Shown: one piece after another, positions 37,196 to 38,600 of the stretch | Position numbering within the stretch: position 1 is the stretch's first letter | Layout: each line of letters starts with the position of its first letter | Assembly: GCA_016220095.1 (NCBI GenBank) | Contig: JACRIJ010000111.1 | Span: 27,748-91,747 of the forward strand | Length of the DNA: 64,000 nucleotides | From: Planctomycetota bacterium | GTDB taxonomy: Bacteria; Planctomycetota; MHYJ01; JACQXL01; JACRIJ01 | Direction: 5' to 3' | Made by a program: the position numbers and the translations under genes | The notes under the pieces: model-generated | The model's database searches: none | What the model was told of the DNA's origin: nothing | The model's input: only the letters and a program-made list of their open reading frames with translations

Positions 37196-37345
37196 CCAAG
37201 ATTAAAGATTACAAGATTGGAAGATTACGCACTTCCAAAGATTCTAAGATTACAAGATTGAGAAGATTACAAGATTACGAAGATTCTAAGATTCGGAAGA
37301 TTACGAAATTCCAACTAATCTTCCCAATCTTCGTAATCTTTTAAT
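37196..37345. repeat. tandem array E1: about 13 direct AAGATTNC(G) octamer/nonamer units followed by about 5 inverted AATCTTNN units (hairpin-forming)
   Basis: aagattaaagattacaagattggaagattacg...gaagattacgaaattccaactaatcttcccaatcttcgtaatcttttaatcttcctaatcttgcaatc. Confidence 0.75.
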
Positions 37346-37541
37346 CTTCCTAATCTTGCAATCATATTATTATATAAAAAGTTATGATTTGGTCAAAGGA
37401 AATGCATTTATAACACGTAACCCGTCAGTGACCGGGCAAACACGGAAAATTAACTCTTGCTTTTGGATTTGTTTTTTACTATAATGCCCGGCCTGCGTAA
37501 TAAAGCAGTACGGCATAGCCGCAACCTATAACGCGAAAATG

Positions 37542-37577
37542 AAAAATGAAGAAGGAAGAATGAAGGACGAATCTACG
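37542..37577 (-). repeat. repeat family A copy A8 (reverse)
   Basis: cgcgaaaatgaaaaatgaagaaggaagaatgaaggacgaatctacg. Confidence 0.7.
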
Positions 37578-37607
37578 AAACGAAATTTGCCACGAATAAA
37601 CAATTTA

Positions 37608-37657
37608 CAGTAGCGAGTAGTGAGTAGCGAGGGACGGAACGACGAACGACTACGCCG
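37608..37657 (-). repeat. repeat family B copy B6 (reverse), adjacent to A8
   Basis: cagtagcgagtagtgagtagcgagggacggaacgacgaacgactacgcc. Confidence 0.7.
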
Positions 37658-37914
37658 ATTAGCCACAGAGACCACAGAGTACACAGAGATTGACGACAAT
37701 TTTTAAGCGCGTACAAAAGTCAATGGCTGTATTGCCTGTAAACTGTCATCAAACGCTCGTCTTCAGCTTTGACGAGGAGATGGCCAGCTTGACAAAGTCG
37801 TCGTAGCTCTCTGAGTCCTCTGTGCCTCTGTGGCTAAATCCGTATCGTCGTTTCGTTATTCAGTCGTTTAATCTTCTGCGCAAAACACGCGGAAGTTGCG
37901 TAATTAGACTCTAA

Positions 37915-38475
37915 TTGACCGTTATGAAAAACAAAATCAACATCAATAATATATCGGATAAATGCCTCAAGCTGAAAGGCTTTGACGAACGCGGCTGTTT
38001 TGGGTGCGCGTGCCCTGATTCGTGTTGCAGGTTCGGAGCGGACTTTGACGCGGAATCCTACGAACTCGTGATAGCGAACGGTTCAGCAATAGAGCCGCTC
38101 ATAGGACGCAAAGTCAGGGATTGTTTCGGAAAGAAATGGCACAACGACCCTGAATACCTGGGCGGAAAAATGATCAGGAGCCGCAAAGGCCCGGACGATT
38201 TCTGCGCGTTCCATAATCCCTCGGGCAAAGGCTGTGTGTTATACAAATTAGCCATGGAAAAAAAATCGGCCAGAAGAATCATTCCTTCTATATGCAGGGT
38301 ATTTCCATTAACATGGGACAATGGCAGGCTCGTTGTCTATGACGAACACGACGATGGCGCGATACCGCGGACGTGCAACTGCGTAGAACCTTCCAATAAA
38401 ACATTAAAAACCGTCATACAGACCCGGCAGGAAGAATTTGAAGACATCTTCGCATTATACGGATTTCAAATTTAA
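37915..38475 (+). CDS. YkgJ/UPF0153 family CxxCxxCC putative Fe-S or zinc-binding protein
   Basis: 186 aa; CFGCACPDSCC motif plus additional conserved Cys (CAFHNPSGKGC, CRVFPL); flanked by the E1/E2 tandem arrays. Confidence 0.55.
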   Translation: MTVMKNKININNISDKCLKLKGFDERGCFGCACPDSCCRFGADFDAESYELVIANGSAIEPLIGRKVRDCFGKKWHNDPEYLGGKMIRSRKGPDDFCAFHNPSGKGCVLYKLAMEKKSARRIIPSICRVFPLTWDNGRLVVYDEHDDGAIPRTCNCVEPSNKTLKTVIQTRQEEFEDIFALYGFQI

Positions 38476-38600
38476 GATCTCAAATCTCAGATTACGAATC
38501 CCGTCTCGCAATGCCGCAATCTTCCAATCTTCGTAATCTTTCAATCTTGGAATCTCTCAATCTTAAAATCTTCTAATCTTAGAATCTTCTAATCCACTAT
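38476..38600. repeat. tandem array E2: about 10 AATCTTNN units (inverted orientation relative to E1)
   Basis: ccgcaatcttccaatcttcgtaatctttcaatcttggaatctctcaatcttaaaatcttctaatcttagaatcttctaatcc. Confidence 0.75.

What the first reader, a model, noticed from the sequence alone, without database searches (positions are those of the whole stretch)
37196..38600. YkgJ-type CxxCxxCC gene bracketed by tandem AAGATTAC-like octamer arrays with orientation switch
Upstream array E1 has about 13 direct AAGATTNC(G) units, then flips to about 5 AATCTTNN units, forming a long imperfect hairpin. Downstream array E2 has about 10 AATCTTNN units. Between them lie A/B repeat copies, a CCACAGAG/CTCTGTGG inverted repeat, and a single gene for a Cys-rich putative metal/Fe-S protein. 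Short-unit arrays like these act as iterated protein-binding sites (iteron-like), phase-variation substrates, or ends of a mobilisable cassette. This arrangement around a single cargo gene is unusual.
Basis: seen in the sequence. Interest (0 to 1): 0.55.

Follow-up and report, generated by a model that had tools for sequence, protein, structure and literature searches.

The report
Octamer-repeat hairpin leader of purL
The two AAGATT/AATCTT octamer arrays are real, but they are not the ends of a mobile cassette: the upstream one is the repeat-built, hairpin-forming 5' leader of the purine-synthesis gene purL, and both belong to a genome-wide population of short intergenic repeat arrays in an uncultured planctomycete.

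Summary
E1 (37198-37365) has 12 exact AAGATT units, then 5 AATCTT plus one AATCAT. E2 (38518-38594) has 9 AATCTT-type units. The doublet pattern gives 16 hits against 0.74 expected.

The cassette, iteron and phase-variation readings are not supported. purL, the Cys-rich gene and the 121-aa gene are syntenic in three related lineages. E1 varies in unit number between them. E2 has 9 units, 2+4 units split by an insertion, or is replaced by a different repeat. The ~420 bp carrying the A/B and CCACAGAG repeats is an insertion found only in the window.

A sigma-70 promoter (TTGACC-16-TATAAT), conserved in a relative, lies outside E1. All of E1 is therefore inferred to be the purL 5' leader: a long hairpin, then AAUCUU units running up to an AUG with no Shine-Dalgarno sequence.

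Hexamer cores are conserved between lineages and spacers are not (3/90 vs 11/28 differences, p=5e-6), which argues against neutral low-complexity DNA. The neighbouring RHH is an antitoxin of a decayed toxin-antitoxin pair. The ArsR gene is 5.6 kb away.

The window holds 33 short-period arrays against 1.6 expected, mostly intergenic. The closest known kind is intergenic simple-sequence repeats, such as the TAACTGA repeats upstream of start codons. The mechanism is not demonstrated.

The parts
37183..37197 (-). purL (PurS-PurL fusion) start codon ATG (37185-37183) and the conserved last leader bases GGAAUCCACUUU. No Shine-Dalgarno sequence.
   Evidence: ORF and Pfam. Identical tail in L002.
37198..37228 (-). 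E1 block C: four AAUCUU units (purL sense) next to the start codon. Orthologous to the four proximal units of L002.
   Evidence: Cores 24/24 identical between genomes; 3 of 8 spacer positions differ.
37238..37302 (-). E1 block B: eight AAUCUU units. Only one counterpart exists in L002, so this is a lineage-specific expansion of about 53 bp with a 17-bp higher-order period.
37317..37365 (-). E1 block A: six AAGAUU-type units (purL sense) at the predicted 5' end of the transcript. They pair with block B in the window and with block C in L002.
   Evidence: Folds. Six units in both genomes.
37369..37396 (-). Predicted sigma-70 promoter of purL: TTGACC, 16 nt, TATAAT. Both hexamers are conserved in L002 although the spacer has diverged.
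37457..37485 (+). Predicted promoter of the Cys-rich gene: TTGCTT, 17 nt, TATAAT. The block is conserved in L002 and L133.
   Evidence: Alignment. L133 1-125. Read directly from the sequence.
37500..37919 (+). Insertion of about 420 bp in the Cys-gene leader, absent from L002, L134 and L133. It carries the AATGAAG and AGTAGCG arrays and a long-hairpin dispersed element (about 37640-37870, CCACAGAG/CTCTGTGG arms).
   Evidence: Second copy at 54934-55118, 69% identity, E 9e-20. Fold -98.9 kcal/mol, z -6.5.
37924..38475 (+). Cys-rich protein of 183 aa, a divergent relative of the CxxCxxCC / DUF3109 families. Function unknown.
38518..38594 (+). E2: nine AATCTT-type units in the convergent spacer. 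It ends 2 nt from the stop codon of the 121-aa gene on the - strand. On the + strand it is 24% C and 5% G.
   Evidence: L133 has 2+4 units with an insertion of about 300 bp; L002 and L134 have a different CCGTAACC/CTTTAACC array.
38597..38962 (-). Conserved gene of unknown function (107-121 aa). The overlapping 56-aa + strand ORF that follows E2 is not conserved.
10861..10899 (+). Third, short AATCTT-type array (AATCTT CC AATCTG C AATCTT ... AATCGT CTT), directly before the ATG of tsaB in a purH / HEAT-repeat gene / tsaB / alr gene string.

Best explanation
E1 and E2 are two unusually long members of a lineage-wide population of short (7-9 bp), degenerate, fast-turning-over tandem arrays. These arrays fill the intergenic DNA of this uncultured planctomycete.

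E1 is not a boundary of anything. It is the transcribed 5' leader of purL. Transcription starts at a conserved TTGACC-16-TATAAT promoter just outside the array. The RNA begins with six AAGAUU units. These fold back on the following AAUCUU units to give a long hairpin at the 5' end. Behind the hairpin, four more single-stranded, A/U-rich AAUCUU units run up to an AUG that has no Shine-Dalgarno sequence.

I infer that the array acts on the RNA. The terminal hairpin would set mRNA stability. The hairpin would also decide how many AAUCUU units stay single-stranded in front of the start codon. Those units could serve as a loading or recognition site for the ribosome (protein S1) or for another single-strand RNA binder.

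E2 is a separate array of the same motif. It sits against the stop codon of the convergent 121-aa gene. It is dispensable there, because a relative carries a different repeat at the same spot.

Shown: the arrays, the conserved synteny, the promoter conservation, the folding potential, the variation in unit number, and core conservation against spacer drift. Inferred: the transcription start, action at the RNA level, and the identity of any binding factor.
For: 1. Promoter. The -35 and -10 hexamers at 37396-37369 score 11 of 12. Both are conserved in L002 while the 16-nt spacer differs. Canonical TTGACA/TATAAT promoters sit immediately upstream of many other genes in the window. The sigma-70 model therefore applies here, and a 175-nt leader is exceptional.
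2. Leader fold. -64.5 kcal/mol, z -7.3 in the window; -36.9 kcal/mol, z -5.0 in L002. The geometry differs between them: the 5' arm pairs with the expanded block B in the window and with the start-proximal block in L002.
3. Conservation. Across orthologous units of E1 (window vs L002) and E2 (window vs L133), cores show 3 differences in 90 sites and spacers 11 in 28 (Fisher p=5e-6). Third-codon divergence of the flanking genes is about 25%.
4. Same motif elsewhere. The AAUCUU sense orientation also sits directly before the tsaB ATG.
5. No cassette. Synteny holds in three lineages while E1 unit number, E2 and the inserts vary.
6. Genome-wide class. 33 arrays of period 6-10 against 1.55 expected, with 22 of 33 in the 14% non-coding DNA. 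Similar arrays occur in a 61%-PurL relative.
7. Precedent. TAACTGA heptamer repeats lie within a few nucleotides upstream of start codons, in intergenic regions poor in ribosome-binding sites; S1, Csp and CsrA were proposed as binders. AGAT repeats in the uspA2 5' UTR set expression by copy number (PMC4679880).
Against: - No transcript data exist. The start site is only predicted.
- The strand test for an RNA structure is weak: the purL sense is 7 kcal/mol more stable than the + sense in the window but equal in L002.
- Unit number differs 12 against 5 between lineages, which does not fit a factor of fixed stoichiometry.
- E2 shows the same core conservation in a convergent 3' spacer, where the leader model does not apply.
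- The comparison rests on only three lineages.
- Alignment of repeat units is secure only next to unique flanks.
- No candidate binding protein was identified.
Confidence: 0.5

Rival explanations
1. Neutral or selfish simple-sequence DNA. The arrays are by-products of replication slippage or template switching in a lineage prone to it. They are tolerated only between genes and have no sequence-specific function. E1 is transcribed merely because it landed between the purL promoter and the start codon.
For: Many unrelated unit families occur in the window. Turnover is fast: E1 is 53 bp longer than in L002, E2 is replaced by another repeat in L002 and split by an insertion in L133, and 48-bp and 420-bp inserts are present. 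E1 has 17-bp and 25-bp higher-order periods typical of slippage duplications. Similar AAGATT/AATCTT hairpin arrays occur sporadically in unrelated phyla.
Against: Cores are conserved and spacers are not: 3/90 against 11/28, p=5e-6, with P=3e-8 against the third-codon divergence rate. Slippage copies spacers along with cores, yet the spacers are highly diverse. The four start-proximal units and the promoter are retained in L002.
Confidence: 0.3
2. DNA-level operator array. An oligomerising repressor binds one dimer per 8-bp unit in direct and inverted orientation, coats E1 and blocks purL transcription. The model is a ribbon-helix-helix protein, as MetJ on tandem 8-bp metboxes or omega of pSM19035 on 7-bp heptads (both recalled from my own knowledge of those systems).
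For: The 8-9-bp period and the orientation switch resemble metbox and omega-heptad arrays. Hexamer cores are conserved. In the window an RHH gene is co-oriented with purL and starts 7 nt after its stop codon.
Against: That RHH is the antitoxin of a RelE/ParE-like pair. In relatives it lies 350 bp from purL, with its own TTGACA...TAATAT promoter, an ATTTGGCATT direct repeat and an intact 89-aa toxin, and there are no AAGATT arrays nearby. In the window the toxin is reduced to a 19-codon remnant. The arrays lie downstream of the -10 hexamer rather than over the promoter. Spacer length varies from 1 to 3 nt, which would dephase a DNA-bound polymer. The ArsR gene is 5.6 kb away.
Confidence: 0.08
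3. Rho-loading (rut) sites. In the AAUCUU sense the arrays are C-containing, G-poor, unstructured RNA of 70-100 nt with one UC dinucleotide every 8-9 nt. E2 would terminate the Cys-gene transcript. The purL leader would be a Rho-dependent attenuator whose rut units are masked by the AAGAUU arm.
For: On the + strand E2 is 24% C and 5% G over 78 nt. The unrelated array that replaces it in L002 is 45% C and 9% G on the same strand. Composition is thus conserved while sequence is not. No intrinsic terminator was found in the E2 spacer.
Against: The purL-leader AAUCUU part is only 18% C against 14% G. The other array families abut stop codons in the G-rich, C-poor sense, so this idea does not generalise. 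Strict hexamer conservation is more than rut sites are known to need. Rho dependence cannot be tested here.
Confidence: 0.1
4. One reading: the arrays are ends of a mobilisable single-gene cassette, replication iterons, or phase-variation switches.
For: The main block of E1 (AAGATT on the + strand) and E2 (AATCTT on the + strand) are inverted relative to each other and flank one gene. Unit numbers differ between lineages.
Against: The gene is in the same place in three lineages, with E2 absent from one of them. Homologues at 60% identity or less sit in other contexts without arrays. No integrase, transposase or Rep gene is present. The units are degenerate rather than perfect. E1 is identical in two samples of one lineage. 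The downstream gene is the housekeeping purL.
Confidence: 0.03

Closest known systems
TAACTGA heptamer direct repeats of marine Beggiatoaceae, Cyanobacteria and Bacteroidetes (MacGregor 2015, PMC4679880)
   Same: Short tandem direct repeats concentrated in intergenic DNA. Many end within a few nucleotides of a start codon in regions without a canonical ribosome-binding site. Housekeeping genes lie downstream. A post-transcriptional role with an unidentified RNA binder has been proposed.
   Different: Here the unit is a 6-nt core plus a 1-3-nt variable spacer, not a perfect heptamer. The array is longer (12+6 units against mostly 2-6). It switches orientation to form a hairpin. The genome carries many different unit families rather than one.
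Long simple sequence repeats of 5-11 nt units (Mrazek et al. 2007, as summarised in PMC4679880) and cyanobacterial STRR heptanucleotide repeats (the latter from my own knowledge)
   Same: Lineage-specific abundance of 7-9-nt tandem repeats, mostly non-coding, with several families per genome, attributed to slippage.
   Different: The degenerate spacers with conserved cores, the inverted-array hairpins and the conserved position in a purL leader are not part of those descriptions.
AGAT repeats in the uspA2 5' UTR of Moraxella catarrhalis (cited in PMC4679880)
   Same: A tandem repeat lies between promoter and start codon, and copy number differs between strains.
   Different: Those repeats are perfect tetranucleotides in a surface-protein gene with strain-level phase or tuning variation. 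Here the units are degenerate octamers before a purine-biosynthesis gene and are stable within a lineage.
MetJ metbox arrays and omega-repressor heptad arrays (ribbon-helix-helix operators; from my own knowledge)
   Same: Contiguous 7-8-bp units occur in direct and inverted orientation.
   Different: No cognate RHH is linked. The arrays lie downstream of the -10 hexamer, and the spacers vary in length.
TRAP-binding (G/U)AG repeats of the Bacillus trp leader (from my own knowledge)
   Same: A conserved short core is separated by 2-3 non-conserved spacer nucleotides, is iterated about 11 times in the 5' leader of a biosynthetic operon, and overlaps an alternative hairpin.
   Different: The core here is a hexamer, copy number is not fixed between species, and no TRAP-like protein is known in this organism.

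Membership tests
Intergenic simple-sequence repeats (LSSR / STRR / TAACTGA-type) | Tandem direct repeats with a unit of 5-11 nt, longer than chance allows | tested here: met
   16 hits against 0.74 expected; 33 arrays against 1.55 expected.
Intergenic simple-sequence repeats (LSSR / STRR / TAACTGA-type) | Enrichment in non-coding DNA | tested here: met
   22 of 33 arrays lie in the 14% of the window that is non-coding.
Intergenic simple-sequence repeats (LSSR / STRR / TAACTGA-type) | Array ends within a few nucleotides of a start codon (TAACTGA-type) | tested here: met
   E1 ends 12 nt before the purL ATG, and the 10861 array 3 nt before the tsaB ATG. This is not true of E2.
Intergenic simple-sequence repeats (LSSR / STRR / TAACTGA-type) | Perfect or near-perfect identical units | tested here: not met
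   The hexamer core is constant but the 1-3-nt spacers are nearly random. I therefore file this as a variant.
Replication iterons | Adjacent initiator (Rep) gene and origin context | tested here: not met
   The neighbours are purL, the Cys-rich protein, unknown proteins and T2SS ATPases.
Replication iterons | Units of about 17-22 bp | tested here: not met
   Unit is 8-9 bp.
Phase-variable contingency SSR | Perfect repeats whose length varies within a population | tested here: not met
   Units are degenerate. E1 is identical in L002 and L134, which come from different samples. E2 is identical in L001 and the window.
Mobile cassette or MITE bounded by inverted repeats | Presence/absence polymorphism of the whole unit; target duplication; recombinase | tested here: not met
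   The gene is syntenic in three lineages while the arrays vary independently, and there is no recombinase.
RHH operator arrays (MetJ / omega type) | Contiguous 7-8-bp units in direct and inverted orientation | tested here: met
   This is a resemblance only.
RHH operator arrays (MetJ / omega type) | A cognate RHH regulator linked to the arrays | tested here: not met
   The RHH is a toxin-antitoxin antitoxin. In relatives it is unlinked to purL and has no AAGATT arrays.
RHH operator arrays (MetJ / omega type) | Protein binding to the units | not testable with these tools
   Needs EMSA or DAP-seq.
YkgJ / CxxCxxCC (PF03692) | Match to the family profile at its threshold | tested here: not met
   The window protein has no hit even at E<=10. 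Two of 15 homologues match at best 3e-5, and 3 of 15 match PF11307.
YkgJ / CxxCxxCC (PF03692) | N-terminal CxxCxxCC cluster plus C-terminal Cys / CR.FP motifs | tested here: inconclusive
   The motif here is CxxCxCxxxCC. Invariant residues C94, C104 and P121-S-I-C124-R-x-x-P128 resemble the family pattern as I recall it.
Rho utilisation (rut) site | At least ~70 nt of C-rich, G-poor, unstructured RNA | tested here: inconclusive
   E2 + strand has 24% C and 5% G over 78 nt. The purL leader part has only 18% C against 14% G.
Rho utilisation (rut) site | Rho-dependent 3' ends | not testable with these tools
   Needs Term-seq with and without bicyclomycin.

The most novel reading that the evidence does not exclude
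In this planctomycete clade, hexamer-core / variable-spacer arrays (AAGATT, AATGAAG, AGTAGCG, CCCGT, CACAGAG and others) form a selected, lineage-wide system of gene-boundary cis-elements. They would be read by one or more unknown single-strand nucleic-acid-binding factors. The purL leader would be a repeat-register riboregulator: the AAGAUU arm chooses which AAUCUU units are exposed, so gain or loss of repeat units retunes expression over evolutionary time.
Probability: 0.15. Interest if true: 0.7.

Novelty: new variant of a known kind. Interest (0 to 1): 0.4.

Why it matters
If the hexamer cores really are recognised, this is an uncharacterised post-transcriptional control element in front of a central purine-biosynthesis gene. 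The organism belongs to a poorly known planctomycete lineage that mostly uses leaderless or very short leaders. It would also show how simple-sequence expansion can build a regulatory hairpin from scratch. In practice, these arrays break short-read assemblies: the Logan contigs end at them. They can also mimic cassette ends, so annotators of such MAGs should recognise them. If the arrays are only slippage products, the finding is a curiosity of genome composition.

Tried and rejected
1. Scan of GTDB genomes for AAGATTNNAAGATTNNAAGATT. These were mostly perfect 8-mer microsatellites or chance triplets. It did not reach the source genome, so it says nothing about other arrays in this organism.
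2. Metagenome scan with the A-module TCGTCCCGTCCTTCATNCTTCAT, meant to collect more DNA of the clade. It returned only one GC-rich soil contig (L129).
3. Rfam. At gathering thresholds only the tmRNA matched. At E<=1 on 37100-38700 there were two plant miRNA-precursor hits below threshold, which are artefacts of the repeat hairpin.
4. purL homologues at about 61% identity (L126, L127). They have no AATCTT leader; L127 has other 7-nt arrays.
5. Cys-gene homologues at 60% identity or less (L003-L006, L128). They have other neighbours, tight spacing and no arrays.
6. The idea that E2 is a duplicated piece of E1 including the purL start (AATCCACTnTATG). I rejected it because the TATATG part is homologous to the conserved 3' end of the 121-aa gene in L002 and L133.
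7. The 56-aa + strand ORF after E2. It is not conserved, since L002 has a stop codon in it.
8. A purine-regulon idea based on the third array. That array precedes tsaB, not a pur gene, although purH lies two genes upstream.
9. PDB profile search for the Cys-rich family found nothing meaningful.
10. An exact look-up of the window's PurL found no record.
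Full report
**Source**

The window comes from an NCBI MAG labelled 'Planctomycetes bacterium'. The Cys-rich protein equals MBI5361151.1 (locus tag HZA48_11290) on a contig of 113,552 bp. The lineage is sparsely sampled. Apart from close relatives at 92% identity, the best PurL match is 62%, to Planctomycetota and Brocadia-like MAGs.

Yes.
- Exact AAGATT occurs 12 times between 37198 and 37302, spaced 7-9 bp with one 17-bp gap.
- AATCTT then occurs 5 times between 37317 and 37357, followed by AATCAT at 37360.
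- E2 has 8 exact AATCTT and one AATCTC between 38518 and 38588.
- A two-unit pattern with at most one mismatch gives 16 hits where shuffles give 0.74.
- The A (AATGAAG) and B (AGTAGCG) arrays and the CCACAGAG/CTCTGTGG inverted repeat are also present.
- E2 is reproduced exactly in an independent Logan contig (L001).

The gene label is only partly right. The 183-aa ORF (37924-38475) matches no Pfam or NCBIfam model. Its family has 14 relatives among 5.8 billion proteins. Of 15 family sequences, 2 weakly match PF03692 (CxxCxxCC) and 3 match PF11307 (DUF3109). The conserved cysteines form CxxCxCxxxCC plus C67, C94, C104, C124 and C151.

**What the neighbourhood is**

E1 abuts the start codon of a PurS-PurL fusion gene on the minus strand (34330-37185). 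E2 lies in the convergent spacer between the Cys-rich gene and a conserved gene of 107-121 aa on the minus strand, 2 nt from that gene's stop codon. No recombinase, transposase or replication gene is nearby.

**Comparison with relatives**

Three related lineages could be read.
- L002 and L134: two different samples with the same sequence. PurL is 92% identical at the amino-acid level, 88% at the nucleotide level and 75% at third codon positions.
- L133: its Cys gene is 86% identical at the nucleotide level. It is syntenic with window 37448-42038.

All three keep the order purL / Cys gene / 121-aa gene. The cargo gene is therefore not mobile.

The non-coding DNA differs strongly:
- E1 is present in L002 and L134, but as 6 AAGAUU-type units, 1 AAUCUU unit, a 17-nt gap and then 4 units. 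The window has 6, then 8, an 11-nt gap, then 4.
- A 48-bp piece between the two divergent promoters is found only in the window.
- About 420 bp between the Cys-gene promoter and its ATG is an insertion found only in the window. This is exactly the stretch with the A and B arrays and the CCACAGAG inverted repeat.
- The core of that insertion is a dispersed long-hairpin element. A second copy lies at 54934-55118 (69% identity, E 9e-20; fold -98.9 kcal/mol, z -6.5).
- E2 has 9 units in the window. In L133 it has 2+4 units split by an insertion of about 300 bp. In L002 and L134 an unrelated CCGTAACC/CTTTAACC array stands in its place.

Homologues of the Cys gene at 60% identity or less sit among other genes with no arrays. 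This rules out the 'cassette bracketed by arrays' reading.

**E1 as the purL leader**

A near-consensus sigma-70 promoter, TTGACC-16-TATAAT, lies on the minus strand at 37396-37369, just outside the array. Both hexamers are conserved in L002 although the spacer between them has diverged.

Canonical TTGACA/TATAAT pairs stand immediately before many other start codons in the window, and several of these leave no leader at all. A purL leader of about 175 nt made almost entirely of octamers is therefore exceptional here.

Folded in the purL sense, the six AAGAUU units at the predicted 5' end pair with the adjacent AAUCUU units (-64.5 kcal/mol, z -7.3). That leaves the last four AAUCUU units and GGAAUCCACUUUAUG largely open. 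In L002 the same arm pairs with the four start-proximal units instead (-36.9 kcal/mol, z -5.0).

There is no Shine-Dalgarno sequence. The opposite strand folds almost as well (-57.3 and -36.8 kcal/mol), so the strand test does not decide between RNA and DNA.

**Is it neutral DNA?**

Probably not entirely. I compared units that can be aligned against unique flanks: the E1 proximal block and 5' arm (window vs L002), and the E2 first and last units (window vs L133). The hexamer cores show 3 differences in 90 sites and the spacers 11 in 28 (Fisher p=5e-6). Given the ~25% divergence at third codon positions, 3 or fewer differences in 90 sites has P=3e-8.

Within the arrays the spacers are almost random in sequence and vary from 1 to 3 nt. 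Slippage copies spacers together with cores. This pattern therefore points to constraint on the hexamer, not to recent expansion alone. Expansion by slippage did also occur, as shown by the 17-bp and 25-bp higher-order periods and the 53 extra base pairs in the window.

**Genome-wide context**

The window contains 33 arrays of period 6-10 with at least 2.5 copies, where a first-order Markov model gives 1.55. Of these, 22 lie in the 14% of the window that is non-coding. E1 (172 bp) and E2 (78 bp) are by far the longest.

Other unit families are CTTCATT, AGTAGCG, CCCGTNN (which also forms an inverted-array hairpin at 17810-17888), CACAGAG, AATTTGA and GTGATAGA. A third, short AATCTT-type array ends 3 nt before the ATG of tsaB. 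A 61%-PurL relative (L127) also carries degenerate 7-nt arrays between genes.

**The proposed binders**

The RHH gene (34071-34322) starts 7 nt after the purL stop in the window. Relatives L130 and L131 show the ancestral state: purL, then 350 bp, then its own TTGACA...TAATAT promoter with an ATTTGGCATT direct repeat, then the RHH, then an overlapping 89-aa toxin-like gene, then the MFS gene. No AAGATT arrays are present there.

In the window the toxin is reduced to a 19-codon remnant. The RHH is thus an orphaned antitoxin, not a plausible octamer reader. The only ArsR-family gene in the vicinity is at 44228-44554, 5.6 kb away, within its own gene cluster.

**Best explanation and rivals**

I commit to the following. 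E1 is a repeat-built 5' leader of purL whose hairpin and exposed AAUCUU units act after transcription, on mRNA stability and on access to an AUG with no Shine-Dalgarno sequence. E2 is a dispensable array of the same motif at a gene 3' boundary. Confidence is 0.5. The structural part (leader, not cassette) is much firmer than the functional part.

Rivals:
- Neutral or selfish slippage DNA (0.3). Argued against by core conservation.
- A Rho-loading site (0.1). E2 has 24% C and 5% G on the + strand, and the unrelated L002 array at the same place has 45% C and 9% G. The purL-leader part is not C-skewed.
- A DNA operator for an oligomerising repressor of the MetJ or omega type (0.08).
- Cassette, iteron or phase variation (0.03).

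**Comparison with known systems**

The closest described systems are the intergenic TAACTGA heptamer repeats of Beggiatoaceae, Cyanobacteria and Bacteroidetes. Those mostly end a few nucleotides upstream of start codons, in regions lacking ribosome-binding sites, and are suspected targets of S1, Csp or CsrA. Also close are the 5-11-nt 'long simple sequence repeats' surveyed by Mrazek and the AGAT repeats in the uspA2 5' UTR (PMC4679880).

What differs here:
- a conserved-core / variable-spacer unit;
- an orientation switch that builds a hairpin;
- conservation of the array in front of purL across species, with changing copy number;
- the coexistence of many unit families.

I therefore rate it a new variant of a known kind, with moderate interest (0.4).

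Noticed in passing
window 37640-37870 and 54934-55118: A dispersed element of about 190-230 nt. A conserved ~120-nt core is flanked by CACAGAG-type inverted arrays and folds into one long hairpin (-98.9 kcal/mol, z -6.5). The two copies are 69% identical. The copy at 37640 is part of a ~420-bp insertion absent from three related contigs. It could be a MITE-like element or a small structured RNA. It has no Rfam match.
   Followed up: partly
window 12737-12775, 14555-14591, 17893-17924, 32675-32701, 39010-39056, 43745-43779 (CTTCATT); 17194-17228, 23013-23058, 27767-27794 (CGCTACT): Heptamer arrays abut the stop codons of minus-strand genes. In the gene's sense they read (AAUGAAG)n or (AGUAGCG)n followed by a GGGACG anchor. 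A 7-nt unit that contains TGA or TAG puts a stop in all three frames within three units, and some ORFs end inside the array. This looks like a recurrent module at gene 3' ends.
   Followed up: partly
L129 1960-2104 (JGI soil contig Ga0137463_1026479): The same CGTCGTCCCGTCCTTCATcCTTCAT module occurs in a much more GC-rich contig, followed by a GAGTAGATCC decamer array and next to a transposase-like ORF. The module is therefore wider than the window's clade.
   Followed up: no
window 33940-34322; L130 159-676; L131 760-1373: A decayed toxin-antitoxin pair. The RHH antitoxin is intact, but the RelE/ParE-like toxin (89 aa in relatives) is reduced to a 19-codon remnant (MRFEF...TIAGTHDEIRRFLR). 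The 350-bp spacer that separates the pair from purL in relatives is deleted, which fuses the RHH gene to the purL transcription unit.
   Followed up: yes
window 17810-17888 and 43650-43680: Arrays based on CCCGTNN followed by ACGGGNN arrays form a second inverted-array hairpin, between smpB and the next gene. This is the same architecture as E1 with a different unit.
   Followed up: no
window 16685-17040 (- strand): tmRNA gene (Rfam RF00023, 169 bits) next to smpB (17232-17693). The + strand ORF 16558-16983 that overlaps it is spurious.
   Followed up: yes
window, upstream of starts at 367, 1886, 15874 and 51843: Near-consensus TTGACA-17-TATAAT promoters end 6-9 nt before the ATG. This suggests many leaderless or nearly leaderless mRNAs in this organism.
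   Followed up: no
L133 725-1040: An insertion of about 300 bp sits inside the E2 array of a related genome. It has a TTGACA...TATACA promoter-like site and GC-rich hairpins, and no copy exists in the window. Arrays may be preferred insertion sites.
   Followed up: partly
L041 5490-5575 (Gammaproteobacteria MAG); L064 1-85 and 1850-1900 (Patescibacteria MAG): Unrelated phyla also carry hairpins of the form AAGATT x3-4, loop, AATCTT x3-4, between genes. In L041 the hairpin lies directly upstream of the ATG of a transketolase-like gene. Inverted octamer arrays of this motif therefore arise repeatedly.
   Followed up: partly
L133 2054-2148 vs window 17719-17770: A short dispersed module (ACGACGA...AACAGGRACT...AGAGACTTTTAAGAGAC) is present twice upstream of the 345-aa gene in L133. 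It is absent at the orthologous site of the window, which carries it elsewhere. This is another mobile or polymorphic intergenic module.
   Followed up: no
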